Assembly: GCA_002315875.1 (NCBI GenBank)
Contig: DCIL01000013.1
Location: forward strand, 3,168 to 67,167
DNA length: 64,000 nucleotides
Source of the DNA: Verrucomicrobia bacterium UBA1727
GTDB lineage: Bacteria > Verrucomicrobiota > Kiritimatiellia > RFP12 > UBA1067
Direction: 5' to 3'
The notes under the pieces are model-generated. The model was not told the origin of the DNA. It worked only from the letters and a program-made list of their open reading frames with translations, and made no database searches. A program made the position numbers and the translations under genes. Below are positions 16,792 through 57,484 of this stretch, piece by piece; positions within the stretch are counted from its first letter, which is position 1, and every line of letters starts with the position of its first letter.

Positions 16792-17805
16792 CTACGGACG
16801 CCGAGCGGAGAAAAGTAAAGAAGGGGCGGAGAGGTAGGGTCCGATACGGCGGCGAAAAGCCGACGAGGAGGTCTTCCAGGCCTGAAACTCGTCTTCGGGA
16901 CGTCCACCCCACGGCACGAGTCGCGCATGCACCAGTTCGTGCGCGAGAACCTCCACCTTCGAACCGAAGCCGTGACGACGGATGACTACCACTCCGTAAT
17001 CCTCGCCATACGAAAAGGTTGCCCCTCCGCAGAAAAGTCCTGGATTGCCATAGACACACGGCACCTCCGAGGGTCTGTCCCCAAAGATTCGCTCCACGAT
17101 ATCAAGCGCCTGCTGCCGCAAATCTTCTTCGACCGGTTTGATTTTACCAAGCGCATTCGCCAGCGGATCCACCCCTTCCCGGAAGGCATCCCATCCCGCA
17201 CGCATGATTAATACGCGGCGAAGATAATCTACGTCAGATTCGCCTTCTTTGCGCAAAAACCCACTCTTAACCAAATTTTCAATAACATTTTTTGGGGCCT
17301 GTCCCCAGAAATCGAGGAGTTCGAGCCAGATGACGGCGAGGGAGTGGAAGTCATCATCGAAGGTTACCTTGCGAGGGTCGGCCGCCTGATGAGGACTCAT
17401 GTACTTAGGAGTGCCGCGCTTGCCTGCCGGCTCCGCGGCAAGTTGTTCGGGCGTCGCGGCAATTCCAAGATCAGCGATCACCCAACGTCCGTCCGGCATG
17501 AGAAGAATGTTCGAGGGCTTCACATCGCGATGGACAATTCCCGCCAGGTGCAAGGCAGTGAGGCCGTGGGAGAGAGGGTTGAGAAGGTTGAGAGAGTTGA
17601 GAGGGTTGAGAGGGTTGAGAGGGGGGTGAGAGGTTGAGAGGAGGTCTTTTAAGGAACAGGTGGCTTGTTCGAGGCGCAGGACACCATTGGCGTAGCCGAA
17701 AGATTTTATAACGTTCGGATGCGACACGCGACTGAGGAGTTCCGCCTCGTGCGCGAGCCGATCCGGCCGCCCTTCCTTCGCCCTTTTCTCGTAATACTCA
17801 CTCAT
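16792..17805 (-). CDS. N-terminally truncated Hanks-type kinase-like domain fused to an HExxH-containing C-terminal domain
   Basis: 337 aa. Catalytic-loop HRDVKPSNILL, DLG (for DFG), GTPKYMSP activation segment. No Gly-rich loop or VAIK lysine, because the ORF begins at about helix C. C-terminus contains VLAHELVHARL. A 9-nt repeat insert encodes PLNPLNPLNSLNLLNPLS. Confidence 0.6.
   Translation of the reverse strand: MSEYYEKRAKEGRPDRLAHEAELLSRVSHPNVIKSFGYANGVLRLEQATCSLKDLLSTSHPPLNPLNPLNSLNLLNPLSHGLTALHLAGIVHRDVKPSNILLMPDGRWVIADLGIAATPEQLAAEPAGKRGTPKYMSPHQAADPRKVTFDDDFHSLAVIWLELLDFWGQAPKNVIENLVKSGFLRKEGESDVDYLRRVLIMRAGWDAFREGVDPLANALGKIKPVEEDLRQQALDIVERIFGDRPSEVPCVYGNPGLFCGGATFSYGEDYGVVVIRRHGFGSKVEVLAHELVHARLVPWGGRPEDEFQAWKTSSSAFRRRIGPYLSAPSLLFSARRP
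17575..17638. repeat. about seven copies of a 9-nt unit RRRGTTGAG inside the kinase-like CDS
   Basis: agggttgag aaggttgag agagttgag agggttgag agggttgag aggggggtgag aggttgag. Encodes PLNPLNPLNSLNLLNPLS on the minus strand. Confidence 0.9.
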
Positions 17806-17814
17806 CCGAATGTT

Positions 17815-18681
17815 TTAGAACTTGAGTTTGACGCCGACGCCGAAGAGGGTCATGTCCTTGAGCGCGTTGTTGGTTTTGCGGCGGTCCAACGCATCGCGTC
17901 CGTCACCGTTCAAAGTGATGAACTCCTGAATGAAGGCCGTCAGACTAAGCCAGTCCGTCAGCGCATATTCTGCATGCAAGGCAACGTCCATTGCCATTAT
18001 TCCAGGCGTATATTTGCCGTCAGCGGAGTTTCGATTCGGCCCGTACTGCGTAAAGAGATGGCGTCCGTCACCAAGCTCTACAAATGCAGCCGGCACAAGC
18101 GTGAGCTTCTCAAATAGACGGAAGGGACGCCGCAAGCCGAGTTCCCAATACGTCCACCTTTGGCCCTTGTCCGCCCAGCGGAAAATGCCGTACGGCACGA
18201 CATAAGGGTTCTTCAACGCCAAAGTGCCGCCCCAATGACACAAAGTCGGAATGTCGCCAACGCCTCCATGGAATACGAGCCAATTCCGGAAAGCCCGCGC
18301 ATCAAGCGACCAGCTGTCTGCCAGTTTGAACTCATATCCGTAATGGCACATGTAGACGCAAACGGTATACCACGGCCGATCGGCAATTGGACAGCCGGTC
18401 ATATCCAAGGCGGACGCAGCGAGGATGTTCCCACCAAAATTACCCCAAGCCCCGCCATTCCAATTCAAGCTCGCGTGCTGAAAAGAGCAGGAAGTGCTGG
18501 AAAGGATTACGCCGCGGAGATGGAAGCCATTGCGGTAGTCAATACTTGCCGAACCATGCAGGCGGCGTTGGATTTCTCTACTCCAGACGGACGACACCTC
18601 GTTGGTGTTTGCCTCTTCACAAAAGCCCGAAGAGACCACCGAGGTCATTGCAACTGCCAATAGAACTGTAAACTGCCTCAT
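17815..18681 (-). CDS. outer-membrane beta-barrel protein (putative porin-like)
   Basis: 288 aa. Signal peptide MRQFTVLLAVAMTSVVSSG, alternating amphipathic strands, aromatic-rich, C-terminal GVGVKLKF ending in Phe as in OMP barrels. Confidence 0.55.
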   Translation of the reverse strand: MRQFTVLLAVAMTSVVSSGFCEEANTNEVSSVWSREIQRRLHGSASIDYRNGFHLRGVILSSTSCSFQHASLNWNGGAWGNFGGNILAASALDMTGCPIADRPWYTVCVYMCHYGYEFKLADSWSLDARAFRNWLVFHGGVGDIPTLCHWGGTLALKNPYVVPYGIFRWADKGQRWTYWELGLRRPFRLFEKLTLVPAAFVELGDGRHLFTQYGPNRNSADGKYTPGIMAMDVALHAEYALTDWLSLTAFIQEFITLNGDGRDALDRRKTNNALKDMTLFGVGVKLKF

Positions 18682-18683
18682 AT

Positions 18684-20741
18684 CTATTTTATTCGGTTTT
18701 CCTGAGCGAAGATAAAAGCGTTGGTCGAGTTCAAAGAAGTGAGATGACCGGTGGCGGTGACCTTGCCGCTGGACGAGAGCGTCATCCAGCCGAGCGCCTT
18801 GAGCGCTGAGCCCGCCTGGGTGAGCGTGACCGGACGGCCTTCGCGATCTTTCACGACCTCACCTGAAACCAGCGAATGGGAATGTCCGTCAATACAGGCG
18901 GTAAGTCCGCTGGTGTTCTTAATCAATGCCTTGCTGGTAAACGGCTTTTCGCAAAGTCCGAGATGTGCCAAAAGAATGACGCTATTGCATTCGTTGGTGA
19001 GAAGTCCGATTGCAGAATCTACCTCAGAATACCAACGGCGGACATCTGTCTTTCCGATGAAATCATAGCTCACGTTCGCCGAGGCATTGGTTATAGGCCG
19101 CGGCACGGTAACGCCGACGAAGCCGACCCTCATAGCCCCGAGGTCGAGCATGTGAAACGACGGCAGCGGACGACTCATCGTACCCGCCGCGCGATTCGTC
19201 ACCGAGAGCGTGGCGGAAAGAATCGGAAACGATGCGGCCCTGACATTCGCCAACATTTTCTCCGCACCGTAGTCGAACTCGTGATTGCCGAGCGTCGCGA
19301 TATCGTAGCCGGCCTTTCCCATGATCTTGATGATCGAATCGTCCGCTCTCGCGGCAAAATCGCCCGCGTCCACGAGCGCAACGGGCGTACCGCTCACCTG
19401 CAGTGCCCTTTTCACCTCGGCAATCTGCGAAAACCTCACCTTGCCGTCCGTGAGATGTCCGTGCGAATCATTCGTCGAGAGAATTACCGCCTCGCCCTCG
19501 ACGGGACCCGCCTTCTCCCACGGATACGCCGTCCGCCAGTCCGCCGCATCAACGGCGAGCCGGTCTTCGCTGCGCACGAAGAAAACGCCGCAACCGTTCA
19601 GCGCGGCGGACGAAAACCACGAGCGATTGAAATGGAGATCCTGACGGAGATTCCACTTCGAGTCCCAAAGAACGACGTTGACGCCGTCCATCGGCAGCGC
19701 CTTGCCGCGCCACTGCTCGCCCGCCCGCAGGAAATACACTTCGCCGGGCTTGAGGACGATTTGCGGCGGGAACTCGTAATCGACGGACAACTTCTCACCT
19801 TGACGCGAGGCCGTGAGATGGCAGCCGGAGACGTCAATGGCGCGGCGGGACACATTGCGCAAGCAGATGAACGAGGGACTGATCGCTACCACACGAAAAT
19901 CGGGAGCGGACACTTCGCATCCGACCGAGCCCTGGCGCAACAATCTGCCGCGGACCATTCCCAGACGGTCACGCGGAATCGACACGCGGCGAACGGACGA
20001 ACCGCGTGTAGGTTCGCCGAGCTCGATCATTCCCGGATCAAGCAGATCGAGAACCGTACACGGATCCCACAGGAGCTGGCTCTTGTTGCCCTGCTCACAG
20101 TCCGGGTCGCGCTCTCGGTAGACGCGGGCGATCGGATCGTCCTCACTCCAATAATGATCGAGCACCAGCTGTCGGGGAAGATAGAGCATCCGTCCGAGCC
20201 CAAACGGCACCAGCACAATCTCGCCCGGCCATTCGCTGATAATCTTTCTGAAACTTTCAGGATTGCCTCCATCGAAGCGGCCCTCCACAATCCTGAGCGT
20301 GCGCACCTTCTCACGGACGAGGTCGCGTCCCGCCATCGCGGAAACGGCATCCGCCGGCGAGTCAAGGAGTCCGATAAGATTACGTGCGGAACCGATCGCC
20401 GAGAGCTCGACGGACTTCGCCGGCGCCGCGGCAAGGAGACGGCGATAGAGCGAAACGGACGACTCGTCGCCGAGCGGCACGTCGCGCCAGCCGTAATCGT
20501 GCATTACCGTCTTCGCGAACTCAAGAAGGCGCTCGCGCTTCGCATCCGCCGCGTCACGGCTGTCGAGCATTATTCCGATGAGCTTGCCGCGTCCCGCCTG
20601 CTCGACCTGCCGCACCAACTCAAGCGCGAAAAGATCGTCCGTCGAACTGCCGCCGAGGTCGGTATCGACGATGATACGCGGATAGACCGCTCCCTCCAGG
20701 GCAAGCGCGGCAACTGCGAAAAGAATGGAAAGGATGCGCAC
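18684..20741 (-). CDS. secreted three-domain fusion: nucleoside-hydrolase-like / lamin-tail domain / calcineurin-type metallophosphoesterase (5'-nucleotidase N-domain-like)
   Basis: 685 aa. Signal peptide. N-domain IIVDTDLGGSSTDDLFAL (DxDxxxDD-type IU-nucleoside hydrolase motif). Middle LTD-like segment (ICLRNVSRRAIDVSGCHLT...EFPPQIVLKPGEVYFL). C-domain motifs NDSHGHL, DAGDF, GNHEFDYG, LAHLG, IDGHSH. Confidence 0.6.
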   Translation of the reverse strand: MRILSILFAVAALALEGAVYPRIIVDTDLGGSSTDDLFALELVRQVEQAGRGKLIGIMLDSRDAADAKRERLLEFAKTVMHDYGWRDVPLGDESSVSLYRRLLAAAPAKSVELSAIGSARNLIGLLDSPADAVSAMAGRDLVREKVRTLRIVEGRFDGGNPESFRKIISEWPGEIVLVPFGLGRMLYLPRQLVLDHYWSEDDPIARVYRERDPDCEQGNKSQLLWDPCTVLDLLDPGMIELGEPTRGSSVRRVSIPRDRLGMVRGRLLRQGSVGCEVSAPDFRVVAISPSFICLRNVSRRAIDVSGCHLTASRQGEKLSVDYEFPPQIVLKPGEVYFLRAGEQWRGKALPMDGVNVVLWDSKWNLRQDLHFNRSWFSSAALNGCGVFFVRSEDRLAVDAADWRTAYPWEKAGPVEGEAVILSTNDSHGHLTDGKVRFSQIAEVKRALQVSGTPVALVDAGDFAARADDSIIKIMGKAGYDIATLGNHEFDYGAEKMLANVRAASFPILSATLSVTNRAAGTMSRPLPSFHMLDLGAMRVGFVGVTVPRPITNASANVSYDFIGKTDVRRWYSEVDSAIGLLTNECNSVILLAHLGLCEKPFTSKALIKNTSGLTACIDGHSHSLVSGEVVKDREGRPVTLTQAGSALKALGWMTLSSSGKVTATGHLTSLNSTNAFIFAQENRIK

Positions 20742-20743
20742 TT

Positions 20744-21820
20744 TTACGACCAGGGCATGTCGAGCTGCATGACCTTCGCCATATCCATGAACGTCGGACG
20801 TTCGGCGAGCTCGTGGTGTCCCTCGAGATGTCCCTCGGCATCGACGCGCGTCGTCTTCCAGCGGTAGAGTTCGCGCACGCGGTAGTCCTTGTTCTCATCG
20901 AGCGGCATCACCTCGGCGATGGAAATCACCTTGCGCGAGCCGTCCATGAGACGAGCGGTCTGCACGATCGCGTGCACCGCGCCCGCGACCTGCGAGCGAA
21001 TCGCCGAAAGCGGCATCTCGATGCCGCTCATGATCGCGCAGGTCTCGAGACGAGCGAGCGTATCCTGGGGAGTGTTCGCGTGAATCGTGGACATCGAGCC
21101 ATCGTGACCGGTGTTCATCGCCTGCAAGAGGTCAATCGCCTCGCCACCGCGGATTTCGCCGACGACGATGCGGTCGGGACGAAGACGCAGCGATGCGATG
21201 AGCAAGTTGCGGATGGAGAACTCGCCCTTGCCGTTCTTATCGGGCTTGCGCGTTTCAAAGTAGACCGAGTGGGGCTGCTTGAGCTGCAGTTCGGACGAGT
21301 CCTCAAGTACGAGAATGCGGTCCTTTTCGGGAATGAGCGAGGAAAGGCAGTTCAGCACCGTCGTCTTACCCGAGCCAGTTCCGCCGGAGACGATGATGTT
21401 CTTGCGGAGCTTCACCAGCGCGTTCAGAATCTTCGCGCCATCCTCGGTGAACGAGCCGAACTTCATCAGCGAATCGAGCGAGAGGGCGTCCTTCTTGAAC
21501 TTACGGATGGAGATGATCGTACCGACGCGCGAGATCGGAGGAATCGTCGCGTGCACACGGCTGCCGTCCGGCAGACGCGCGTCGAGGTCGGGATACATAT
21601 CATCGAGAATACGCTCGACCGAACGCGCGATGTTGACCGCGGCGGCCTTGAGCGAGGCCTCGTTGGGAAAGTGCTCGGGACACAGCTCGAGCTTGCCCTT
21701 GCGTTCGACGTAGATCTGGTTCGGTCCGTTGACGAGGATTTCCGAAACCGAATCGTCATCGAGATACTTCGCGACCGGCGCGAGAAACAGCTTCAAAAAC
21801 GATGCATCATTATTTGCCAT
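20744..21820 (-). CDS. CpaF/TadA-family secretion ATPase, short form (no N-terminal accessory domain)
   Basis: 358 aa. Walker [11 protein letters not shown], Asp box LVLEDSSELQL, Walker B DRIVVGEIRGGEA, His box NTGHDGSMSTIHAN. Core matches the other two CpaF copies in the window. Confidence 0.85.
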   Translation of the reverse strand: MANNDASFLKLFLAPVAKYLDDDSVSEILVNGPNQIYVERKGKLELCPEHFPNEASLKAAAVNIARSVERILDDMYPDLDARLPDGSRVHATIPPISRVGTIISIRKFKKDALSLDSLMKFGSFTEDGAKILNALVKLRKNIIVSGGTGSGKTTVLNCLSSLIPEKDRILVLEDSSELQLKQPHSVYFETRKPDKNGKGEFSIRNLLIASLRLRPDRIVVGEIRGGEAIDLLQAMNTGHDGSMSTIHANTPQDTLARLETCAIMSGIEMPLSAIRSQVAGAVHAIVQTARLMDGSRKVISIAEVMPLDENKDYRVRELYRWKTTRVDAEGHLEGHHELAERPTFMDMAKVMQLDMPWS

Positions 21821-21823
21821 GAG

Positions 21824-21877
21824 AGAGTTGAGAAAGTTGAGAGGGTTGAGAGGGTTGAGAAAATTGAGAGGGTTGGC
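21824..21877. repeat. six copies of the same 9-nt unit RRRRTTGAG, filling the intergenic spacer between the giant gene and the short cpaF
   Basis: agagttgag aaagttgag agggttgag agggttgag aaaattgag agggttggc. It starts 3 nt from the cpaF ATG (21820) and ends at the giant-gene stop (21878). Confidence 0.9.
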
Positions 21878-34848: not shown

Positions 34849-35025
34849 TTACGGATAGGGCATCGCCACCACTGAAATGACGCGATGGAAAAACCCTGCC
34901 ATCTCATTGCCGAGATCTCCGAGCTTGCCGTCCGGCGAGACGATGGAGAACGACAGGAGCATCGCCATCGGCACCAGCGAGCAGAGGAGTATCACGTACT
35001 CAAGCATGATAGCGCCTCGTTTCAC
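34849..35025 (-). CDS. flp: canonical Flp-type pilin (58 aa), not in the supplied ORF track
   Basis: Hand translation: GTG(35025) KRGAIMLEYVILLCSLVPMAMLLSFSIVSPDGKLGDLGNEMAGFFHRVISVVAMPYP TAA(34851..34849). G/AIML-EY fits the G/XXXXEY Flp processing motif. The GTG start overlaps the upstream TGA (GTGA). The first in-frame ATG is at 35007. Confidence 0.7.
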   Translation of the reverse strand: MKRGAIMLEYVILLCSLVPMAMLLSFSIVSPDGKLGDLGNEMAGFFHRVISVVAMPYP

Positions 35026-53400: not shown

Positions 53401-54821
53401 AGCGAGAGAGTGCCACTGGAGCCCATGGAGATCGTCTGCCGGCCGCTGTGGGCGGACGGATTGAAGATGAGCGAACCCTTGTACTCCGCAAGCGTAATGC
53501 TCTTCGCGGACTTGATGACGTAATCGTTATCGGAAATGCCCTCGCCGCCCAAAGCCACCGAACCTTCGTCAGAGGTGACCTTTACACCGCCCAGGAAACG
53601 GTTGCCTGCTGCCGAAAGCGAGACCGACCCCTTGGCATGAGCTTCAATCATACCCTCGGCACCGAGCGAACCTGAATCCGACAGCGTAATCGTACCTTTG
53701 GTAGCGGTGATGTAGGCAGTTGCCAACGATGAATTGTAGAACTTGGTCTTGCCGGTAAGCTCAATATTGCCATTAAGCGCCTTGATTACGATTTCCGGCG
53801 AGGTCACCGTTCCTTCGGCAATGGAAAGGTCGCCGACGACCATGTTATCCGCCGCCACGATCTTGGCACCGCTCGCAAAGTATCCGGAGACTTCCAGATC
53901 CTCCAGGAACTTGCCTTCCTTCACGTCCATGTAGTTGAGAAAACCGATATTCCTCTCCGGATCATCTTTGCTGCCATTATGAATATAGGAGGCAACGGTC
54001 ACCAGGTTGCCATTGCCAACGTAGGTCGGGCTGTTCACATGGCCAAAGGACTCGATCTTGTTGCCCACGAGCGCAAGACCAGTCACACTCATGCCAACCT
54101 CGGAATCGATGTAGATGCCTTTACCTTCTACGCCGTCAGTCGAAAAGCTCGCCGACCAATGGCTGGAGACATCAAGCGGGGTCGCCGCGGCAAGTCCGAG
54201 ATATCCATTTAGGTCGACCGCTGCGCCGCTCGTAAAGGAGATACCCGAAGGATTGATGATCCAGACATTGACCTTGGAAGCATGGAGGTTCGGTAAATTG
54301 CCTTGTTGAAAAATCATCGAGAGGTCGGTGGCGGCACCCGTGACTGCAGTGCTCATCGAATTGCCGATGAAACCAGAAATAGTCGTTGGCGTTCCGCCGT
54401 CGACGATATTGTAGATCGTGCCGCCGCTCTCGCCGACTAAATTACAAAAAATCAACTGTTTATCTTGATCTACACTGAGTTTTGACCACTTTACGACACC
54501 AGGTCGGTCATTGTTGATCAGTTCAACTATAGTGGTCTTCTCAAGCTCTTCAAGGCCGAGCTTGATGCCAACCATAGAGGTAAAGAACTCCGCCGCCTTA
54601 AGAAGGCCCGGTGCATTAGGATCCATGACGGTGGCGTTACTCGCCTCGCGAAAGAGATTGCCGTCGCATGCGTTCTTGCCATTACTCGATATTGCAACCT
54701 CGGCTTTCTCGTACCATTCTGGAGCTTTTCCAAAGGCCGGGGTGATTGAGCCGAACGCGGCAATGAGCGCTACGGTCAGACGGACAGGTTTCGGGAAAAC
54801 GTTTCTTAACATGACATGCAC
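44460..54821 (-). CDS. giant (3453 aa) two-partner-secretion exoprotein (TpsA, FhaB/filamentous-hemagglutinin type)
   Basis: Signal peptide, then a TPS secretion domain (VVKWSKLSVDQDKQLIF...TIYNIVDGGTPTTISGFIG...VWIINPSGISFTSGAAVDLNGYLGLAAATP). Long beta-helical repeats, including 5 tandem units of about 384 aa. Non-repetitive C-terminus of about 250 aa. Confidence 0.8.
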   Translation of the reverse strand: MHVMLRNVFPKPVRLTVALIAAFGSITPAFGKAPEWYEKAEVAISSNGKNACDGNLFREASNATVMDPNAPGLLKAAEFFTSMVGIKLGLEELEKTTIVELINNDRPGVVKWSKLSVDQDKQLIFCNLVGESGGTIYNIVDGGTPTTISGFIGNSMSTAVTGAATDLSMIFQQGNLPNLHASKVNVWIINPSGISFTSGAAVDLNGYLGLAAATPLDVSSHWSASFSTDGVEGKGIYIDSEVGMSVTGLALVGNKIESFGHVNSPTYVGNGNLVTVASYIHNGSKDDPERNIGFLNYMDVKEGKFLEDLEVSGYFASGAKIVAADNMVVGDLSIAEGTVTSPEIVIKALNGNIELTGKTKFYNSSLATAYITATKGTITLSDSGSLGAEGMIEAHAKGSVSLSAAGNRFLGGVKVTSDEGSVALGGEGISDNDYVIKSAKSITLAEYKGSLIFNPSAHSGRQTISMGSSGTLSLSAENGDIEMQGAINGWNGRLGILNAGGSISVSAPTVSVDLRGSIVAGENVSVYANSFTANPVGENRGIAAETGDISIRTLNGMAFNGDFQIAAENGQVALENLSRGDLVIGQRFDDAGDNRINIDARNVKLRQGGSGDLVVEENAIISSTGAATYDTGIELEHEGDLYVFGELSQVLPDFTKGFDDQGKPNAYQLPKITSTGNGYVRAMSLDMRERDYKLSDLDGDFGTWAHLEYMRIYNLGSTLTVDESMALKVAAPGSRTGNRASVVLQGVGDLNVVLPETVLDASDTGLIISAAKKNTITLSGKGTIDAGSRSLIFSGADLTSDNQVTIKASTMGFYNSINVSLGKNDHVFVDSIFGLAGDIKLRANAYLDPETFRLAGDLYANTLALDTGGKSSQRRDFIGGYETGDITDPSQLYTLSLDGGTFAVGLKDDAKFYVKAPQTLVVSSIRETTGEDTYTTIADLRYDAPGGLTIVGNKTEGTLTATDLGGDIMTGDYYLRETEGSIKLNSAIRTQGNATVIAAADNATIEFSKTVNDVLGEIRLAASDTADLNFKNWGTIDIRRVSGNNVEFESKNGSISVAASSAFVAGTLTAIADKGNVVIDTQGADKSDWSGRLGEVRAQGTAYVSTEKKLVMEGNITAGDVELDGTKGVDSNNRRIVTTDQNRIPGDEYVRRTSGSLWASSAKGAVKLDNENGPSHDVMIFGANARDGVTFRNSTDVTVDNVTAKAGDITLATTGDIKVDGQITGDNITLDASQKISFGEDAIVDADTGTTFLSRNADFILDLDQMQSKETRESWNLGRVSVMAGSEDALRDVTVVGVEEQELTLGSVAGYNVRLEGKTGLYGDENSVVRAEGTLDAVAKSGDVYLASENNALYGKVTATAKEGNIGVINSRTLLIGDMTANATSGSIGLRGANVVSDGKVTLTAASVSAGAPGDVTLNVAGTLNMDELAARNANLVVTDEGASVTVANGSVDNLAVSVAKDLSIANSKSVVLGSFSVGGDAAVSADGTISQGGYADASSALNIGGTANFTATKDIRLDNPYNYFGSRILAQAGGAATFVTTEDRGLEFDSLSASAADLRAGTADDNDIVINNGSVESLKATAGGKLKVKNQTNLALRELDVKTFEIENEGWVYGAAKITTHGATADSPNSLKASGEIALVNDENVLGDTLKVDGGDAVTLVNGNALNLEINAEGPLSTKINGDLNVKAGTELNVGQMKADNVKVVAANGLTGDSDSKIITGNFDAKATGGDIMLAGANEFAGIVTAQADAGSVGIVAADTLRIGDVTAKGEESSIDLMADSIVSEDREIELTASSVNLGATDVNLTFKGDGNLNTVAADNVTLAAKNEGASITVADGAMGRFAGEVKKNLTIVNNRNLTLGEVTVGDLAEKKGDFNLTVDGKIAQDGAVKVGGLTTVKATDDITLENQQNVFASRLVAETSTKASFASSEGLDFNSLVARDAVVASENGDVLVRNGKVDTLAGTVKGNLKAVNSQDLQLNEITAGSLKLGVEGEITGDKKIVTAATAENPNKLVASGAISLTSDENQLKVASVTSEKEVNLHNGEDLDLTIDAEGLFSATVAGNLKTKAMSELLVGEITANAIDIYAKNGVNGDVDSKVTTPGAFTAVAEQGDLVFAGANQIGGVASAKAEKGSVGLRNDGDLLVGDMIANADEGSVTVSANSIKSEGDSKIEMTGASVNLGAAEDIAVNFKGSAKLNRVVAQNATLNTDVDGSSLTVADGSVKTFAGAVSKNLDFANDKSLALGAVTVGGSAKVSVDGVLSQTDKISVNGKSTVVATEGIELVNENNHFGSRIAAETLGTAKFTAAEGLDFDSLTAVDAVLDGKTKNILVRSGLVDTLQAKTEADLKVINNQSLVLKESTVGRMEIQATGDVTQEGVLTADKSTLENPNKVVASGKVVLTDAANNFGERLNIDSGETVKIVNNGSVTLGLDAEDTVDATIAGDLKVVAGKQLYVGQFKADSIDIAAENGVVGDESSKVTTGAFSANTVNGDVLLQGKNEMTGIVAARAERGNIAINNEGDIHLGDMMAKTGDGTLNVTAKNIKSDGRQIKMAAGSANLEALEDIDINFKGDATLDHVVANYAKFEATDAGSSLKVTDGAVKNISAKVDRNFEFMNDQNLELGYIEANGTAAIRADGNITQQEPLVYDTRVSVGGTATFAAAGDITLLNPFNHFGSKIVIENAKDLNISSENGLKFDGLNVENAQLNGGNGDIVVENGMVNTLAATTAADLYFENGKSLVLKEIDVRSMVLDIAGDLTGVDKVKTQATEAHPNKIVAEGKVELTNEDNELGAVASVKSGDDINLVNKNDLALTVDTAAKTSVKNAGKLDVTAVQLLDIGTLDVAGDLSVTGLEGINGDADSKVIAQAKADFVAKTGDVYLGGVNELNGVTSAKATEGDVMIGNTVPLTIADVIANSENGTIELAAKSISSEAGSKSEVKAATVNLTAEDTINIDFEGDAALNRVVAQSATLKAEDSGASVTVADGSVGKIAGAAHANFTIQNDRDLVMDDLIVGGDANIGVNGALSQEGAVAVAGKATVTATDSIKLDNPNNIFQSTIVAETAGSAQFASLVGLDFESLSAKDAVLNGGSGNVWVRAGHVESLGATAAGDLVAINDQALRLTEVDVKSMKVSAEGDIIGDDRIVTASTAEDPNYIVAEGNVELTAADNHLGRETKIEATGEKVTLFNNGDLNLELVNDNQLTIDNADGDLNVNATKLSKSRASTINGNLAVNANEIYESVFDADRGNLSLTAGTIGTEDSPIVANATGRLDANAAGSLSINRTKGGWIVGSGGNVSAGGNLKVIANGEIGTMGGVIEAGGNIYLTANSYLPNTEISLGGPTLDIDVNAGYKHPQWASFRTVGGNDLPHFGFHDGVWVILNDGLTPTVPDYSYATTLDQIHMISNSPLNPQTYAAGESYHLTSSQLGSIDLVGFERSSYLYGDNFNIEYTTKE
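45000..50760 (-). repeat. five tandem, diverged ~1.15 kb (~384 aa) coding repeats inside the TpsA gene (boundaries approximate)
   Basis: Recurrent landmarks at about 50.70-50.75, 49.52-49.58, 48.37-48.43, 47.23-47.30 and 46.09-46.14 kb (x-G-[NS]-[IV]-G-[IV]...L-[LR]-[IV]-GD[MV]-[TI]-A) and five [EDH]-[NS]-PN-[KSY] landmarks. Copies are similar at protein level, not identical at DNA level. Confidence 0.8.
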
Positions 54822-54830
54822 TCCTTTCCC

Positions 54831-56792
54831 TTAGAACTGCATCCTGGTTGAAAGATAGAACTCGAAGTCGCGATCCTGATCGTCAAGATACGCCTTGCGA
54901 AGCGGAATCGCGAAGTCGGCGCCGAGCGTGAAGTAGCGCGTGAGCGAGAACCTGAGACCGAGACCGCAGGAAGCGAGCCACTCGTCATCAAGATAATAGC
55001 TGGCCAGATATTCGGTGCTGTTGTAGCGCATCCAGCCGGCATCGACGAACGCGATGAACTGCCAACGCGAGATCGGCAGGCAGTTCTTGCGATCCATGAA
55101 GAGCTTCAGCACCGGATCCGTCCAGATCGGCGTGCGGAACTCGATCGTGCCGTTGAAGCCCCAGTCGCCCTGGTAACCGCGGGTGCGGTAACCGCGGACT
55201 GTATCGTGGCCGCCGAGCGTAAGCTTTTCGGACGAGGTAAGCGTCTGGTCGGTCCAGCTGCCGTGAATCTTGCCGAAGACGGTCCACTTCTGCCACTCGG
55301 GTACGTCCGTCGAAAGAACATCGGTGATGGCCTGAAGGCGGGCGACGTTGAACGAGACGACGTAATACTTATCCTCGGCACCGTAAACGTAGTCGGAAAG
55401 TCGGTTGCCGCTGTGGTAGCAGTTGAAGAGGAACTGCGCATCGGCCCAGAGACGACCGCCGGCCTGATCGGCCTTCTTGTCGGCGTATACGAGCCCGATC
55501 GTCGCCGGCAGCGTGCGCGCCGCACGCTGATACTGAGTCAGGTCGGAGATGTCAAAACGATCCCTCGACTCGCGGAACATCACGCCCGCATCGATGGAGA
55601 CCGTGCGCCGATCGCTGTCGTAGAGATTGACCGAGAGCTTGGTGCCGGCGAACCAGCCCTTGCCGATGAGGTCAAAGTCGGTCAGCACCTCTTCGTTCTT
55701 GAGATCGGAGTAACCGCCGTAGAAGTTGAGGTAGCCGCCGCGCCAGAAGGTGAACGGCAGCAGGTAGCCGCCCGAGATCCACCAGAGATCAGCGTTCTGG
55801 CTCAAGCCGGGCGAAACCGTCAAGATGTCATCGTGCTTCGTGAGGTTCGTCAGCTGCAACGCCCCGGTGAACTGCCATTCGCCGATCTCGTGCATGCCGT
55901 AGTTGTTGACCTCGACATTGCCATGAATCGGAATCGAGTCGTCGACATTGAGCACGATGTCGCCGATCTTCGTGTCTTCGCCGCGAACCTCGACACCCGC
56001 ATGGACACGGTAGTCGGGATGGTTGTTCAACGCGCGCATCGTATCGTTGATCGCCTCCACCCGGAAGACATCGCCCTTCTTGATGCCCTTGATCTTCTTC
56101 ACGACCTGCTCGTTGGAGTGGAACCAGCTGTTGGTCTCGCCGCCGAAATGGACGATCACATCACCGAAGCGACCGGGATCGACCTTGATCGTATACTGGC
56201 CGTTGCGCGAATTGTAGGCGTTATCATCGGCCGTCACCGTCGCGAGCGGATACCCAAGCCGCACCACCGCCGCCTGCGCCTCCTTCAAAAGCCGCGGCTC
56301 GCTCTCTTCGTTGAGCACCACGCCGCGGAAGATCGGATCGAGCAACGAGAAGACATCGTGCTCATCGCAGAACTCCTCATCGCCGCGAAGACGGATGCGC
56401 TTGATGACGCCGCCGGGATTAGGAATCCAACGCGAGGGACGACGCGACATCGCCACCCCGTCGGACGGCTTGGAGGACGCCTGACGCACCTTGAGCTCGC
56501 GGCGGGTCATGAAGTCGACAGAAACCGTCACCGTGCCCGAAGCGCTCGCCGTAGGCACGAACGCCAGCTTGACCGAATAGCCCTTCTGATCGAGCTCGAC
56601 CGCCAGCTCGCCGACGATCTTCTCGACCTCGACGGCAATGAGATCCTTGCCGACGATGCGCTCGGTCAGCATCGTGCGTACACGACGCTTCTCCTGAACG
56701 GACGCCGTGCCTACCGTCTTGACGCGGTCGATGCCCTGCGCGAACACCGACCCCGCCAGCAGCAGGCAAAATAGTATCGCTAAGCGTTTCAT
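54831..56792 (-). CDS. TpsB outer-membrane transporter (ShlB/FhaC/HecB family, POTRA + barrel)
   Basis: 653 aa. Signal peptide MKRLAILFCLLLAGSVFAQG, POTRA-like N-region, Omp85-type barrel with a terminal ...YLSTRMQF. Located immediately upstream of the TpsA gene (9-nt gap). Confidence 0.75.
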   Translation of the reverse strand: MKRLAILFCLLLAGSVFAQGIDRVKTVGTASVQEKRRVRTMLTERIVGKDLIAVEVEKIVGELAVELDQKGYSVKLAFVPTASASGTVTVSVDFMTRRELKVRQASSKPSDGVAMSRRPSRWIPNPGGVIKRIRLRGDEEFCDEHDVFSLLDPIFRGVVLNEESEPRLLKEAQAAVVRLGYPLATVTADDNAYNSRNGQYTIKVDPGRFGDVIVHFGGETNSWFHSNEQVVKKIKGIKKGDVFRVEAINDTMRALNNHPDYRVHAGVEVRGEDTKIGDIVLNVDDSIPIHGNVEVNNYGMHEIGEWQFTGALQLTNLTKHDDILTVSPGLSQNADLWWISGGYLLPFTFWRGGYLNFYGGYSDLKNEEVLTDFDLIGKGWFAGTKLSVNLYDSDRRTVSIDAGVMFRESRDRFDISDLTQYQRAARTLPATIGLVYADKKADQAGGRLWADAQFLFNCYHSGNRLSDYVYGAEDKYYVVSFNVARLQAITDVLSTDVPEWQKWTVFGKIHGSWTDQTLTSSEKLTLGGHDTVRGYRTRGYQGDWGFNGTIEFRTPIWTDPVLKLFMDRKNCLPISRWQFIAFVDAGWMRYNSTEYLASYYLDDEWLASCGLGLRFSLTRYFTLGADFAIPLRKAYLDDQDRDFEFYLSTRMQF

Positions 56793-57406
56793 TTCTTCTT
56801 CACATCCTTCCTGACGGACTCGTTCTTGATGCCGGTCTGGATGATCGACTTGGTCTTCACGTCAAAGGTGTAGTTGCCGCGCTCATCGAGATGGAAGCGC
56901 TCGCGCAGCGCCTTGTCCGCATCGCGCGCAAGCTGCCCGCGCTCGGAAATAAGCCCTTCGAGAACCTGCTGCTGAATCGCATAGCGCAAGCGCTTGGTAA
57001 TGAGATCCAGCGCCGGCTTCGCCTCTTCCTCGCTCTTGAACTTGAGGTGCTTGAGCCGCTTGTTCTCGCCCTTCCAGGTCTTCTCCTCCAGAAGCTGGTA
57101 GATCGTCATATCCTCGTTGTCGAAGACATACTGCTGGCGCTGAAGGATGCGGTAGTCCTTCACCAACCGCTCGTTGACGTTCGAAAGCGCAATCCGCTTC
57201 TCCCACTCAAGCCGCGCCGCCACCGTCGCGTCTTCCAGCGCGCGCTGACGAACGAGCGTCATCGAGACGAAATACTCGGTATTCGTCTCGTCCAGTTTGG
57301 CAATCACCTTCGGAAACTCCGACTTCGCCGCCTTGTCCGCAGGCGCGGCACAAGCAACCATGGGCAGAATTCCACAAAGAACCACCATCAACTTACGAAC
57401 TTTCAT
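56789..57406 (-). CDS. putative lipoprotein, coiled-coil, function unknown (first gene of the TPS/Tad operon)
   Basis: 205 aa. Signal/lipobox-like LPMVAC, helical charged body. AGGGAG Shine-Dalgarno 5 nt upstream (57412..57417). 4-nt overlap with the tpsB start. Confidence 0.55.
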   Translation of the reverse strand: MKVRKLMVVLCGILPMVACAAPADKAAKSEFPKVIAKLDETNTEYFVSMTLVRQRALEDATVAARLEWEKRIALSNVNERLVKDYRILQRQQYVFDNEDMTIYQLLEEKTWKGENKRLKHLKFKSEEEAKPALDLITKRLRYAIQQQVLEGLISERGQLARDADKALRERFHLDERGNYTFDVKTKSIIQTGIKNESVRKDVKKK

Positions 57407-57441
57407 TCAAGCTCCCTATTAGTTTCAATAAATTTGTAAGA

Positions 57442-57450
57442 ATTTTACCA
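57442..57450 (-). promoter_or_regulatory. extended -10 element TGGTAAAAT (putative promoter of the TPS/Tad operon)
   Basis: Minus strand TGGTAAAAT, 21 nt downstream of the palindrome. If the TSS is about 7 nt past the hexamer, the palindrome centre is near -41.5. Confidence 0.4.
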
Positions 57451-57468
57451 CATGAAAGAGACGCGGTC

Positions 57469-57484
57469 TGTGCTAATTATCACA
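57469..57484 (-). promoter_or_regulatory. CRP/FNR-type palindrome TGTGA-N6-GCACA (putative binding site of the adjacent Crp/Fnr regulator)
   Basis: Minus strand reads TGTGATAATTAGCACA (plus strand TGTGCTAATTATCACA), 9 of 10 half-site positions matching TGTGA-N6-TCACA. It abuts the crp-like stop codon and lies upstream of the 57406 start. Confidence 0.5.

What the first reader, a model, noticed from the sequence alone, without database searches (positions are those of the whole stretch)
16792..57484. A roughly 40 kb, single-strand Tad/Flp pilus super-operon wired with FHA domains and loaded with giant exoproteins
From the predicted promoter at about 57.44 kb down to at least 16.79 kb there are 22 co-directional genes with no intergenic gap larger than 66 nt and at least ten start/stop overlaps. 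The core is a recognisable Tad (type IVc) machine: cpaB, cpaC secretin, cpaF, tadB, tadC, two flp genes, tadV and three TadE/TadG-type pseudopilins.

It is embedded with components that canonical flp-tad/cpa loci (Aggregatibacter, Caulobacter) do not carry:
- an FHA domain fused to CpaF
- a double-FHA membrane protein and an acidic bitopic partner
- a TpsB/TpsA two-partner secretion pair
- a 2723-aa Gly-tract repeat protein
- a second, short CpaF
- a secreted nucleoside-hydrolase/LTD/phosphoesterase fusion
- an outer-membrane barrel
- a truncated kinase-like protein

Taken together this looks like a composite envelope machine (pilus plus dedicated giant cargo or adhesins plus phospho-threonine-type signalling) rather than a plain adhesion pilus. 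To my recollection, the Tad-like systems described with FHA/kinase-type accessories are the Myxococcus Kil contact-killing clusters. Whether this locus is related cannot be judged by eye.
Basis: partly seen in the sequence, partly recalled or inferred. Interest (0 to 1): 0.85.

Follow-up and report, generated by a model that had tools for sequence, protein, structure and literature searches.

The report
Phospho-regulated two-motor Tad pilus locus
This is a real Tad-type adhesion-pilus gene cluster of an uncultured gut bacterium of the Lentisphaerota/Kiritimatiellota group, of an apparently undescribed subtype that carries phosphothreonine-reader domains, a protein kinase and a second, stripped-down motor ATPase; the giant secreted proteins next to it are add-ons found only in this lineage.

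Summary
There are 22 tightly packed minus-strand genes (largest gap 66 nt). They include a complete Tad core, an FHA-CpaF fusion, a double-FHA membrane protein, a TpsB/TpsA pair, a 2723-aa protein, a short second CpaF, a nucleotidase-type phosphoesterase and a truncated kinase.

Comparison with 12 related loci splits the cluster in two.

- **Conserved across Victivallales and Kiritimatiellae gut MAGs:** CpaB, secretin, FHA-CpaF, TadB, TadC, a bitopic partner (with its own FHA domain in most relatives), the double-FHA protein, Flp pilins, TadV and TadE/TadG/TadF-like pseudopilins.
- **Conserved in the Victivallales-type loci as well:** a 3HB-less short CpaF next to an intact Hanks kinase.
- **Not conserved:** TpsBA occurs only in the closest relative. 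The 2723-aa protein has no full-length homologue. The phosphoesterase and the putative outer-membrane protein are unique to this contig.

In this contig the kinase is a decayed chimera and the partner protein has lost its FHA domain.

Relatedness to Myxococcus Kil is limited to shared FHA modules and gene order. The ATPase never groups with any Kil lineage in the tree, and FHA-CpaF is already a published architecture class.

Verdict: a new variant of a known kind. The "dedicated giant cargo" reading is not supported.

The parts
57407..57484 (-). 78-nt AT-rich gap between a Crp/Fnr-type regulator gene (57485-58159) and the first gene. A possible promoter or leader.
   Evidence: Contains an extended -10-like TGGTAAAAT. 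The sigma-70 scan did not call it. Function is not established.
56789..57406 (-). g01: 205-aa protein that looks like a lipoprotein (signal peptide ending ...MVAC). No family assigned.
   Evidence: No Pfam or NCBIfam hit. N-terminus. No homologue found in related loci.
54831..56792 (-). g02: TpsB-type Omp85 transporter of two-partner secretion.
   Evidence: ShlB/FhaC 76.9 bits, Omp85 36.2 bits, weak POTRA_2. Absent from the stretches held for all 12 related loci; in L003 that stretch ends inside the TpsA gene, so the position upstream of it was not seen.
44460..54821 (-). g03: 3453-aa TpsA-like exoprotein with DUF5649 repeats.
   Evidence: DUF5649 142.9 bits in 6 stretches. TPS domain sub-threshold at 25.3 bits, with an NPSGI motif at residue 190. 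No VENN-type pretoxin motif. Shared only with L003 (37% identity over the C-terminal 818 aa), where it also ends 3 nt before cpaB.
43695..44456 (-). g04: CpaB/RcpC.
   Evidence: TIGR03177 76.2 bits (cutoff 71), RcpC 31.7 bits. Conserved in 9 of the 12 related loci; the stretches held for L012, L091 and L092 end short of its position.
42098..43666 (-). g05: secretin (CpaC/RcpA type), 522 aa.
   Evidence: Secretin domain 34.5 bits at residues 315-467. Only the C-terminal domain matches solved secretins such as InvG.
40353..42098 (-). g06: FHA-CpaF motor ATPase, 581 aa. Layout: FHA, linker, three-helix bundle (3HB), N-terminal domain (NTD), ATPase domain.
   Evidence: FHA 58.5 bits and T2SSE 217 bits. 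TadA-family TIGR03819 324 bits. Exact protein found on JGI contig EMG_10000202. Alignment.
39428..40345 (-). g07: TadB-type platform protein.
   Evidence: T2SSF 47.3 bits. Gene call of 305 aa in L001.
38641..39426 (-). g08: TadC-type platform protein.
   Evidence: T2SSF 52.7 bits.
37430..38638 (-). g09: bitopic membrane protein, 402 aa. An acidic cytoplasmic tail with a DETVDEDE motif, a TM segment at about residues 75-99, and a conserved C-terminal domain of about 300 aa.
   Evidence: Hydropathy. Homologues follow TadC in every related locus. In L004, L006, L009, L011, L013, L014 and L091 they carry an N-terminal FHA domain (Pfam 29.7 bits in L091) that is missing here, in L003 and in L089.
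35022..37430 (-). g10: 802-aa protein. Layout: FHA, FHA, one TM helix, then an all-alpha domain of about 540 aa.
   Evidence: Pfam FHA 67.2 bits at residues 137-201. hhalign gives 99.2% probability across both FHA domains. AlphaFold model has pLDDT 82, with FHA 5-105, FHA 115-209, TM 220-244 and helices 248-786. The top 50 PDB matches are all FHA domains.
34849..35025 (-). g11: 58-aa Flp-type prepilin (MKRG/AIMLEY).
   Evidence: Identified by motif only; no Pfam hit. A homologue follows g10 in L003, L004, L006, L009, L011, L013 and L091.
34438..34782 (-). g12: 114-aa Flp-like pilin (R/AVMMEY) with a Gly/Ser-rich tail.
   Evidence: Flp_Fap 22.1 bits, below the 32.2 cutoff. Homologues of 81-98 aa in relatives.
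33908..34411 (-). g13: TadV/CpaA-type prepilin peptidase.
   Evidence: Peptidase_A24 50.9 bits.
33282..33911 (-). g14: TadE pseudopilin.
   Evidence: TadE 34.4 bits. G/SMLMEA motif.
31153..33285 (-). g15: TadG-type large minor pilin, 710 aa.
   Evidence: Tad (PF13400) 24.7 bits, above the 22.3 cutoff. Only the N-terminal ~280 aa or less is conserved with relatives of 558-615 aa.
30396..31151 (-). g16: TadF-like third pseudopilin, 251 aa.
   Evidence: TadE E 0.021. G/SVLMET motif. The gene in the same position in L004 (E 0.001) and L013 (E 0.039) also has a weak TadE match.
30046..30396 (-). g17: 116-aa conserved small protein of unknown function.
   Evidence: Weak tblastn matches to the 147-148-aa gene in the same position in L006 and L011.
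21878..30049 (-). g18: 2723-aa Gly-rich surface or exoprotein. An orphan.
   Evidence: Only a weak Flg_new repeat. No NCBIfam hit. The best database matches cover at most 10% of the protein. Absent from the related loci; the stretch held for the nearest relative, L003, ends before its position.
21820..21875 (.). Array of a 9-bp repeat (GAGAGGGTT on the + strand), 6 copies, filling the 57-nt gap before g19.
   Evidence: TRF. The same array occurs only once more in the window, inside g22.
20744..21820 (-). g19: short CpaF paralogue, 358 aa. NTD plus ATPase domain only; no disordered region and no three-helix bundle.
   Evidence: T2SSE 194.6 bits. Residues 14-353 align to C. crescentus CpaF 149-489. 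Walker A, Walker B and His box are intact. Only 41% identical to g06. Homologues of 69-78% identity lie in L004, L006, L009, L011, L089 and L091.
18684..20741 (-). g20: secreted 685-aa protein with a UshA/CpdB/Nt5e-type metallophosphoesterase domain, a weak lamin-tail domain, and a possible nucleoside-hydrolase-like N-terminus.
   Evidence: Metallophos 24.5 bits, LTD 21 bits. Nt5e E 4.5e-16 at residues 414-669. IU_nuc_hydro E 0.079. Not found in relatives.
17815..18681 (-). g21: 288-aa secreted protein, possibly an outer-membrane protein.
   Evidence: No family hit. Signal peptide and C-terminal GVGVKLKF. Structure prediction failed.
16792..17805 (-). g22: chimeric kinase remnant. Residues 1-165 are a Hanks kinase without its N-lobe, interrupted by a 9-bp-repeat-encoded NPL tract. 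Residues 171-323 are homologous to an HExxH membrane protein.
   Evidence: Pkinase profile positions 35-191 only. Alignment with the intact kinases of relatives. hmmsearch 33.5 bits, E 3.7e-11, to the 261-285-aa HExxH family. Repeat at 17572-17641.

Best explanation
The locus encodes a Tad (type IVc) pilus machine of a subtype shared by gut and rumen Lentisphaerota (Victivallales) and Kiritimatiellota.

**Shown.** The conserved core is CpaB, secretin, FHA-CpaF, TadB, TadC, two bitopic inner-membrane proteins whose N-termini carry FHA domains (one domain in g09-type, two in g10-type), Flp pilins, TadV and three pseudopilins. Victivallales-type loci add a second CpaF paralogue that lacks the three-helix bundle, next to a Hanks Ser/Thr kinase, plus an HExxH membrane protein in five of them (L004, L006, L009, L091, L092). 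No TadZ/CpaE is present.

**Inferred mechanism.**
- The kinase phosphorylates threonines in the acidic cytoplasmic tail of the g09-type protein (conserved DET-x-D-[DE]-D motif), or in another component.
- The FHA domain of CpaF, which keeps the phosphate-contacting Arg and Ser, reads that mark. This docks or activates the long motor on the TadB/TadC platform.
- The g09 and g10 proteins link the platform to the periplasmic CpaB-secretin conduit. They would take the scaffolding place that TadZ and the lipoproteins hold in classical systems.
- The short CpaF, laid out like PilT (NTD plus ATPase only), acts as a second motor, most plausibly for retraction.

**This contig is a derived, rearranged copy.** All parts were brought onto one strand. 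A TpsB/TpsA pair was placed upstream, an orphan 2723-aa surface protein was inserted before the short CpaF, and a secreted nucleotidase-type enzyme plus a putative outer-membrane protein were inserted between the short CpaF and the kinase. The kinase has degenerated, and g09 has lost its FHA domain.

The added exoproteins most likely act beside the pilus in surface attachment and nutrient scavenging, exported by their own routes (TPS or Sec). They are probably not pilus cargo.
For: **Domain assignments:**

**Synteny.** The core order CpaB, secretin, FHA-CpaF, TadB, TadC, g09, g10 is found in L003, L004, L006, L009, L010, L011, L013, L014 and L089; L091 and L092 show the same order as far as their stretches reach (cut in the secretin), and L012 holds only TadB to g10. 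Organism titles are Victivallales, Kiritimatiellae and 'Verrucomicrobia' MAGs from rumen and gut.

**Short CpaF and kinase.** They are adjacent in L004, L006, L009, L011, L089, L091 and L092. The kinases of the five aligned loci (L004, L006, L009, L011, L089) keep the catalytic Lys, HRD and DFG; the L091 kinase has DLD in place of DFG. The short CpaF family is abundant: more than 120 clusters at 90% identity, and one protein listed in 230 blocks of the collection.

**g19 lacks the 3HB but keeps its catalytic motifs**. The literature treats 3HB-NTD-CAD as the minimal CpaF, and treats Tad as a single-ATPase system (PMC12019362).

**FHA domains.** g09 homologues carry an FHA domain. g10 has two FHA domains, a TM helix and an alpha domain.

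**The extras are lineage-specific**.

**g22 is a chimera of a kinase remnant and an HExxH protein**.
Against: - No transcript, phosphorylation or pilus data exist.
- The FHA domain of CpaF lacks the usual Asn of the S-x-N-G-T loop. The second FHA of g10 lacks the phosphate-binding Arg in the nine family members aligned. Some of these FHA domains may therefore bind without phosphate, as in T3SS YscD/PrgH.
- Kiritimatiellae loci show no kinase or second ATPase within 10 kb, so these two parts are not universal.
- The kinase is defective in this contig, so the proposed gating cannot work here with the local gene alone.
- The TpsA-cpaB junction (a 3-nt gap) is kept in two organisms. That leaves room for a functional link between the TPS pair and the pilus in this sub-lineage.
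- The retraction role of the short CpaF rests only on analogy with PilT.
Confidence: 0.65

Rival explanations
1. The locus is a Kil-type apparatus, homologous to the Myxococcus/Bdellovibrio Tad-like contact-dependent killing machine, and is used by a gut bacterium to attack neighbouring cells.
For: - It shares with Kil an FHA-fused ATPase, several FHA accessory proteins and the absence of TadZ (PMC8460266 main text and Supplementary file 1).
- In Kil-like loci of a Myxococcota MAG (L022) and a Bdellovibrionaceae MAG (L030), TadC is followed by FHA proteins, including a double-FHA one. The position is the same as here.
- The tandem FHA module of g10 aligns to the L022 protein at 99.2% probability.
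Against: - The PVC FHA-CpaF clade is monophyletic (100% bootstrap) but joins Myxococcales, Bdellovibrionales or Bradymonadales in only 0-4% of replicates. Identity to KilF (44%) is lower than to betaproteobacterial CpaFs (50%).
- FHA-CpaF is a general architecture class (PMC12019362).
- Homology of the accessory proteins ends with the FHA domains. The Kil-type proteins are TPR proteins, with KilD described as cytoplasmic, whereas these are bitopic with a non-TPR alpha domain.
- Kil has one ATPase.
- No needleless T3SS is present in the window.
- Some related loci have carbohydrate-active enzyme genes nearby, which fits a saccharolytic lifestyle.
Confidence: 0.12
2. The whole 40 kb works as one composite machine, in which the Tad apparatus exports or displays the giant proteins (TpsA, g18) as dedicated cargo.
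For: - Gaps are tiny and some starts overlap, including g17/g18 (-4 nt) and TpsA/cpaB (+3 nt).
- The TpsA-cpaB junction is conserved in L003.
- No terminator-like sites lie in the gaps.
Against: - The Tad core occurs without these genes in 11 of 12 related loci, including L089.
- g18 has no full-length homologue anywhere.
- TpsA has its own transporter, TpsB.
- Tight spacing and a single strand are properties of the whole 64-kb window, housekeeping genes included.
Confidence: 0.1
3. The pilus serves uptake or scavenging of extracellular nucleic acid. The secreted nucleotidase/nucleoside-hydrolase fusion would process what the retractile pilus brings in.
For: - g20 combines a 5'-nucleotidase/2',3'-cyclic phosphodiesterase-type domain, a lamin-tail domain and a DTDxxxDD-like N-terminus, and sits inside the cluster.
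- Tad pili are implicated in DNA uptake in Micrococcus luteus, as stated in PMC12019362, and in Liberibacter (PMC8513845, title seen).
- A second, PilT-like ATPase would suit a retractile pilus.
Against: - g20 is absent from every related locus.
- No ComEA, ComEC or DprA-type genes were found among the window genes scanned.
- The nucleoside-hydrolase assignment is not significant (E 0.079).
Confidence: 0.05

Closest known systems
Classical Tad/Flp (type IVc) pili: Aggregatibacter tad, Caulobacter cpa, Pseudomonas rcp/tad
   Same: CpaF-family ATPase, a TadB/TadC pair, CpaB/RcpC, a secretin, Flp-type pilins, a short A24 prepilin peptidase and TadE/TadF/TadG minor pilins. All were detected by profile or motif.
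   Different: - No TadZ/CpaE and no recognisable TadD/CpaD/RcpB.
- The ATPase carries an FHA domain.
- Two extra bitopic proteins with FHA/TM layout follow TadC.
- There is a second CpaF paralogue without the three-helix bundle.
- A Hanks kinase and an HExxH membrane protein accompany the system in relatives.
- The pilins of the second class lack Gly at position -1.
Myxococcus xanthus Kil system and Kil-like loci of Bdellovibrionales and Bradymonadales (PMC8460266, PMC12075869)
   Same: An FHA-fused ATPase, an over-representation of FHA proteins next to the platform genes, no TadZ, and TadE/F/G-type minor pilins that could form a tip complex.
   Different: - The ATPase does not nest in the Kil clade.
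- The accessory proteins share only the FHA modules.
- There are two ATPases instead of one.
- The hosts are anaerobic gut PVC bacteria, not known predators.
- No associated T3SS* was seen.
- The Kil papers report the system as restricted to predatory lineages.
Class III (FHA-bearing) CpaF orthologues, mostly betaproteobacterial, e.g. Achromobacter xylosoxidans (PMC12019362)
   Same: The same FHA, linker, 3HB, NTD, ATPase layout as g06. In my tree the PVC clade is sister (63% bootstrap) to the group that holds these sequences and the Kil sequences.
   Different: That paper describes the ATPase architecture only. It does not describe the g09/g10 FHA membrane proteins, the kinase or the short paralogue, and it treats 3HB-NTD-ATPase as the minimal CpaF, which g19 falls below.
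Threonine-phosphorylation control of the type VI secretion system (PpkA kinase / Fha1 / TagH), and the FHA-fold cytoplasmic domains of T3SS YscD/PrgH
   Same: A Hanks kinase together with FHA proteins attached to an envelope-spanning machine. The FHA, single TM helix, periplasmic domain topology of g09/g10 resembles YscD/PrgH (Pfam Yop-YscD_cpl hits; YscD among the fold matches).
   Different: No sequence relation beyond the FHA fold, and the machine is a type IV filament. Phospho-dependence is untested, and the second FHA of g10 lacks the phosphate-binding Arg.
Two-partner secretion (type Vb): FhaC/FHA, ShlB/ShlA
   Same: g02 is a ShlB-family Omp85 protein placed directly before a giant beta-helical-type repeat protein with a TPS-like N-terminus.
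   Different: The TPS domain is below Pfam's threshold. The passenger is built of DUF5649 repeats. There is no CdiA-type toxin motif and no immunity gene.

Membership tests
Tad/Flp (type IVc) pilus | CpaF/TadA-family hexameric ATPase | tested here: met
   g06: T2SSE 217 bits, TIGR03819 324 bits. g19: 194.6 and 305 bits. Best solved relative is C. crescentus CpaF, E 4e-88.
Tad/Flp (type IVc) pilus | Two separate single-T2SSF platform proteins (TadB and TadC) | tested here: met
   g07 47.3 bits and g08 52.7 bits to PF00482.
Tad/Flp (type IVc) pilus | CpaB/RcpC and a secretin | tested here: met
   TIGR03177 76.2 bits, above cutoff 71. Secretin 34.5 bits, above 27.5.
Tad/Flp (type IVc) pilus | Flp-type prepilin (short leader, G/xxxxEY) and a short TadV-type A24 peptidase | tested here: met
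   g11 has MKRG/AIMLEY. g12 is sub-threshold for Flp_Fap (22.1 against 32.2 bits) and has R instead of G before AVMMEY. Peptidase_A24 50.9 bits in a 167-aa protein.
Tad/Flp (type IVc) pilus | TadE/TadF/TadG minor pilins | tested here: met
   TadE 34.4 bits (g14). Tad 24.7 bits (g15). g16 is weak (E 0.021) with a G/SVLMET motif.
Tad/Flp (type IVc) pilus | TadZ/CpaE ParA-like protein | tested here: not met
   No ParA/CpaE-type hit in any product of the locus, among the flanking genes scanned, or in the gene tables of related loci.
Myxococcus Kil system | FHA domain fused to the ATPase, plus further FHA proteins in the cluster | tested here: met
   g06 FHA 58.5 bits. g10 has two FHA domains. g09 homologues have one FHA domain. 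The feature is not specific to Kil (PMC12019362).
Myxococcus Kil system | ATPase falls in the clade of Myxococcales, Bdellovibrionales and Bradymonadales | tested here: not met
   Neighbour-joining tree on 231 columns from the published Kil supermatrix. The PVC clade is monophyletic (100%) and groups with individual Kil lineages in 0-4% of 200 replicates. The test has low depth resolution: Kil monophyly itself was not recovered.
Myxococcus Kil system | KilD / MXAN_4648-type FHA-TPR proteins (KilD is described as cytoplasmic) | tested here: not met
   g09 and g10 are bitopic. hhalign homology stops at the FHA domains. The only TPR signal is TPR_14 at E 0.017.
Myxococcus Kil system | Single ATPase | tested here: not met
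   Two CpaF paralogues, 41% identical, here and in 7 related loci.
Myxococcus Kil system | Contact-dependent prey killing, and dependence on a needleless T3SS | not testable with these tools
   Requires phenotyping and the whole genome. No T3SS genes were found among the window genes scanned.
Two-partner secretion (type Vb) | TpsB Omp85 transporter with POTRA and a ShlB-type barrel, adjacent to its substrate gene | tested here: met
   ShlB 76.9 bits, Omp85 36.2 bits, POTRA_2 21.4 bits (below cutoff). A 9-nt gap to g03.
Two-partner secretion (type Vb) | N-terminal TPS domain in the substrate | tested here: inconclusive
   PF05860 25.3 bits (cutoff 33.5), E 1.7e-5, at residues 174-281. The NPNGI-equivalent NPSGI is at residue 190. 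No PDB sequence match.
Hanks-type Ser/Thr protein kinase (g22) | Complete catalytic core: Gly-rich loop, beta-3 Lys, HRD, DFG | tested here: not met
   g22 starts at helix alphaC, has DLG for DFG, and has a repeat-encoded NPL tract in place of helix alphaE. HRDVKPSN is kept. The kinases of L004, L006, L009, L011 and L089 are complete; the L091 kinase has DLD in place of DFG.
CpaF architecture classes I-III (PMC12019362) | Three-helix bundle preceding the NTD (the stated minimal architecture) | tested here: not met
   For g19, residues 14-353 align to CpaF 149-489, with no residues opposite the 3HB region. g06 does meet it and fits class III.

The most novel reading that the evidence does not exclude
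Lentisphaerota (Victivallales), with a reduced form in Kiritimatiellota, carry an undescribed Tad subtype. In it, pilus dynamics are divided between two motors: a long FHA-CpaF switched on by threonine phosphorylation, and a 3HB-less, PilT-like short CpaF acting as a dedicated retraction motor. Two FHA/TM proteins replace TadZ as the scaffold. This would be the first Tad system with separate extension and retraction ATPases, and a second, independent case (after Kil) of an FHA-wired Tad machine. It is common in human and animal gut metagenomes.
Probability: 0.3. Interest if true: 0.75.

Novelty: new variant of a known kind. Interest (0 to 1): 0.6.

Why it matters
Tad pili are currently described as single-motor machines whose one ATPase both extends and retracts the fibre, and 3HB-NTD-ATPase is regarded as the smallest working CpaF. 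A widespread gut-bacterial Tad subtype with a second, 3HB-less CpaF next to a kinase, and with four FHA domains spread over the motor and two membrane adaptors, would give a natural system to ask two questions: how direction and timing of Tad pili are controlled, and whether FHA wiring evolved independently of predation. The organisms (Victivallis and relatives) are common in human and ruminant guts, and some are cultured, so the question is testable. For this particular contig, the result also corrects an attractive over-reading: the giant exoproteins are recent neighbours, not parts of the machine.

Tried and rejected
1. **PDB sequence search with the TpsA N-terminus:** only chance-level hits.
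2. **Fold search with the full g10 model:** the listed top 50 matches were all FHA domains and nothing informative came out for the alpha domain.
3. **Single-sequence AlphaFold of g21, to test the outer-membrane-barrel claim:** pLDDT 27.7, unusable.
4. **hhalign of the g10 family against the Kil-like double-FHA proteins of L022 and L030:** no alignment beyond the FHA domains.
5. **A Biopython bootstrap run timed out**. I replaced it with my own numpy neighbour-joining bootstrap. That tree lacks deep resolution, since Kil monophyly was not recovered.
6. **The 9-bp repeat arrays flanking g19-g21.** I considered them a possible insertion or recombination scar. The motif is absent from all related loci and occurs sporadically in 68 unrelated metagenome contigs. 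It is a generic microsatellite and gives no provenance.
7. **Rfam and tRNA scans of the window:** nothing found, so no riboswitch or integration-site evidence.
8. **CdiA-type toxin motifs in TpsA** (VENN and similar): none. BLASTP self-comparison found no long internal repeats in g03 or g18.
9. **Literature searches** for a Tad system in Victivallis or Kiritimatiellota, and for Tad systems with two ATPases: none found in the held library. That library omits most subscription journals.
10. **An exact-protein look-up with the GTG start of g06 failed.** The ATG one codon downstream is the start on record.

Full report
**Source and setting**

The window is part of a 92.7-kb contig of JGI metagenome 3300001598 (EMG_10000202). 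The 581-aa FHA-CpaF is found there exactly, and also in a Logan assembly. G+C is 55-63%. Codon-position G+C and profile hits show that every gene examined across the 64 kb is read from the minus strand. That includes housekeeping genes on both sides: Rnf subunits, DapF, a dicarboxylate symporter, tail-specific protease, a NERD protein, Dxs, and upstream a Crp/Fnr regulator. Strand uniformity therefore says nothing about operon limits.

**Observation check**

The 22 ORFs between 16792 and 57406 are real. With conservative start codons the largest gap is 66 nt, and eight junctions overlap by 1 or 4 nt. Neighbouring gaps are 78 nt to the regulator gene upstream and 29 nt to a 10-TM protein gene downstream.

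Terminator-like hairpins are not enriched (6 found against 12.7 expected, and 18 against 19.4). None lies in an intergenic gap. The promoter proposed at 57.44 kb is only an AT-rich gap with a TGGTAAAAT motif, and the consensus scan did not call it. No Rfam family or tRNA is present.

**Domain assignments**

The Tad core is confirmed above curated thresholds:
- CpaB (TIGR03177).
- A secretin.
- An FHA+T2SSE ATPase.
- Two T2SSF platform proteins.
- An A24 peptidase of 167 aa.
- TadE and TadG-type minor pilins.

Some parts rest on weaker evidence. The 58-aa pilin carries the Flp motif G/AIMLEY. The 114-aa pilin is sub-threshold and unusual in having Arg, not Gly, before AVMMEY, a trait shared by its relatives. 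A third pseudopilin (g16) is supported by a weak TadE hit and a G/SVLMET motif.

The extras check out as follows:
- TpsB is solid (ShlB 76.9 bits).
- The 3453-aa protein has six DUF5649 repeats, a sub-threshold TPS domain (25.3 bits, E 1.7e-5) with NPSGI, and no CdiA-type toxin motif.
- The 685-aa protein has a UshA/CpdB/Nt5e-type phosphoesterase domain and a weak lamin-tail domain. The nucleoside-hydrolase N-terminus is not significant.
- The 288-aa 'barrel' has no family hit, and its single-sequence model failed. It remains a guess based on a signal peptide and a C-terminal GVGVKLKF.
- No TadZ/CpaE is present.

**The 802-aa protein and its partner**

The g10 family is rare in word-indexed searches: nine full-length relatives in 5.8 billion proteins. 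An AlphaFold model built on that alignment is confident (mean pLDDT 82). It shows two FHA sandwiches (residues 5-105 and 115-209), one TM helix (220-244) and an all-alpha domain (248-786). Only the FHA parts match solved structures: GarA, OdhI, YscD and others. By topology the FHA domains are cytoplasmic and the alpha domain periplasmic; this is an inference.

The upstream 402-aa protein is bitopic, with an acidic N-terminal tail. Its homologues in L004, L006, L009, L011, L013, L014 and L091 carry an N-terminal FHA domain (Pfam 29.7 bits in L091). That domain is missing here, in L003 and in L089. These three still share a DET-x-D-[DE]-D motif in the tail. The ancestral system therefore had four FHA domains: one on the ATPase, one on g09 and two on g10.

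Only the ATPase FHA keeps both the Arg and the Ser that contact phosphate in canonical FHA domains. The second FHA of g10 has Ser in place of that Arg in all nine aligned family members.

**Two ATPases**

g19 aligns to Caulobacter CpaF residues 149-489. In a multiple alignment it has nothing opposite the three-helix bundle, yet it keeps Walker A, Walker B and the His box. It is 41% identical to g06 and forms its own 100%-supported clade.

A 2025 study sorts CpaF orthologues into classes I-III, calls 3HB-NTD-ATPase the minimal architecture, and reports that removing the 3HB abolished expression in Caulobacter. It describes Tad as a single bifunctional-ATPase system (PMC12019362). g06 fits class III. 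g19 falls below the stated minimum and has the NTD-plus-ATPase layout of PilT-type retraction motors.

The short form is common. More than 120 clusters of 354-375 aa at 67% identity or more were found, some named Victivallis or Lentisphaeria, and one protein is listed in 230 blocks of the collection. Among the 150 nearest 50%-identity representatives, about 22 also begin the NTD within the first 35 residues. The architecture therefore recurs but is a minority.

**Comparative synteny**

Twelve related loci were read. Full-length g10 relatives occur only in Victivallales, Kiritimatiellae and 'Verrucomicrobia' MAGs from rumen and gut.

- **Shared core.** CpaB, secretin, FHA-CpaF, TadB, TadC, g09-type and g10-type are found wherever the stretch held covers their position; L012, L091 and L092 are cut upstream. 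Flp-type pilins, TadV and the minor pilins are found in most loci whose stretch reaches that far, some only weakly.
- **Victivallales-type loci** (L004, L006, L009, L011, L091, L092) have two convergent arms. The second arm ends with short CpaF overlapping a 284-299-aa Hanks kinase. The aligned kinases of L004, L006, L009 and L011 keep the Lys, HRD and DFG; the L091 kinase has DLD in place of DFG. In L004, L006, L009, L091 and L092 the first arm ends with a 261-285-aa HExxH membrane protein.
- **L089** (FHA-CpaF 66% and short CpaF 78% identical to the window) has short CpaF and kinase directly before cpaB.
- **Kiritimatiellae loci** are collinear with the window but show no kinase or second ATPase within 10 kb.

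None of these loci has TpsB, TpsA, g18, g20 or g21. Only L003, the nearest relative (FHA-CpaF 81%), has a 3380-aa DUF5649 protein, and it too ends 3 nt before cpaB. g18 has no homologue covering more than 10% of its length.

**The kinase gene in this contig**

g22 begins at helix alphaC, so it has no Gly-loop and no catalytic Lys. It has DLG for DFG. Its alphaE region is replaced by an NPL tract encoded by a 9-bp repeat. Residues 171-323 are homologous to the HExxH protein that is a separate gene elsewhere (33.5 bits, E 3.7e-11) and keep HELVH.

The gene is thus a chimeric remnant. It sits just where g20 and g21 have been inserted between short CpaF and the kinase. The same 9-bp array fills the gap before g19, and the two arrays are the only ones in the window. 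The motif is a generic microsatellite elsewhere.

**Relation to Kil**

The Kil papers list an FHA-fused KilF, several FHA proteins (MXAN_3104, KilD, MXAN_4648, MXAN_4649), one ATPase and no TadZ. They regard Kil as restricted to predatory Myxococcales, Bdellovibrionales and Bradymonadales.

Kil-like loci that my FHA search happened to fetch (a Myxococcota MAG, L022, and a Bdellovibrionaceae MAG, L030) show TadC followed by three FHA proteins. The second and third also carry TPR repeats, and the third has two FHA domains. That position parallels g09/g10, and the tandem FHA module aligns at 98-99% probability. Nothing beyond it aligns.

The PVC FHA-CpaFs form a separate clade. It is weakly sister (63%) to the group holding both Kil and beta/gamma-proteobacterial sequences, and never sits inside a Kil lineage. 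Identity to KilF is 44%, against 50% to Verminephrobacter or Thauera.

Together with the class III literature, this makes the FHA-ATPase fusion a shared architecture rather than evidence of Kil membership.

**Mechanism proposed**

*Shown:* gene content, domain layout, conservation pattern, and decay of the kinase and of the g09 FHA domain in this contig.

*Inferred:*
- g09 and g10 form an inner-membrane scaffold that couples TadB/TadC and the motors to the CpaB-secretin conduit.
- The kinase creates pThr marks, and the acidic g09 tail is a candidate substrate. The ATPase FHA domain reads these marks to gate assembly.
- The short CpaF provides a second, probably retraction, motor.
- In the window's lineage the pilus genes were joined onto one strand and acquired a TPS exoprotein pair, an orphan giant surface protein, and a secreted nucleotidase-type enzyme with a putative outer-membrane partner. 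These are plausibly all used at the cell surface but exported independently of the pilus.

**Verdict**

The thing is a new variant of a known kind. The conserved Lentisphaerota/Kiritimatiellota subtype is more interesting than the 40-kb 'super-operon' as such.

Noticed in passing
window 17572-17641 and 21820-21875: Two arrays of the same 9-bp repeat (GAGAGGGTT on the + strand), the only ones in the window (0.01 expected by chance). One lies in frame inside the kinase remnant, where it encodes NPL repeats. The other fills the gap before the short CpaF gene. As direct repeats they bracket g19-g21 and the 5' part of g22. Recombination between them would delete the second ATPase.
   Followed up: partly
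window 16792-17295 (g22 residues 171-323); L004 12615-13400; L006 11207-12034; L091 11911-12768: A conserved 261-285-aa protein with an ETLAHEMVHA (HExxH) motif and C-terminal hydrophobic segments belongs to the Victivallales-type Tad loci and has no Pfam family. In the window it survives only as the C-terminal half of the kinase remnant.
   Followed up: partly
window 34438-34782; L004 19439-19960; L091 5314-5831: The longer Flp-like pilins of this clade have Arg or His, not the near-invariant Gly, immediately before the AVMMEY segment. The short 58-65-aa pilins that follow g10 have the usual Gly. The window's copy also has a Gly/Ser-rich tail of about 30 aa that relatives lack.
   Followed up: no
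window 35020-35094: A 7-bp repeat (about 10 copies) at the 3' end of g10 encodes a Lys/Gly/Glu-rich tail (KGKGKSEKVDGKGKSEKGEGKK). The tail is absent from all relatives.
   Followed up: no
window 58245-61977: Three tightly packed minus-strand ORFs (280, 607 and 357 aa) upstream of the Crp-type regulator have no Pfam or NCBIfam hit. The 607-aa one has a single central hydrophobic segment (residues 214-244), a layout reminiscent of g10. They are not found next to the Tad core in related loci.
   Followed up: no
window 1-16762 and 57485-64000: Every gene examined across the 64-kb window is on the minus strand, including an Rnf cluster (RnfD, RnfC, RnfB-like and FMN-binding subunits), DapF, an SDF symporter, Tsp protease, a NERD nuclease-like protein and Dxs.
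   Followed up: yes
P0289-P0295: The best-scoring 50%-identity representatives for the short CpaF are 821-1605-aa proteins that match the query in 2-4 separate stretches. These may be tandem fusions of CpaF-like ATPase units, or merged gene calls.
   Followed up: no
window 15338-16762: A 474-aa protein with about 10 hydrophobic segments and no family hit lies 29 nt downstream of g22. It may or may not be co-transcribed with the cluster.
   Followed up: no
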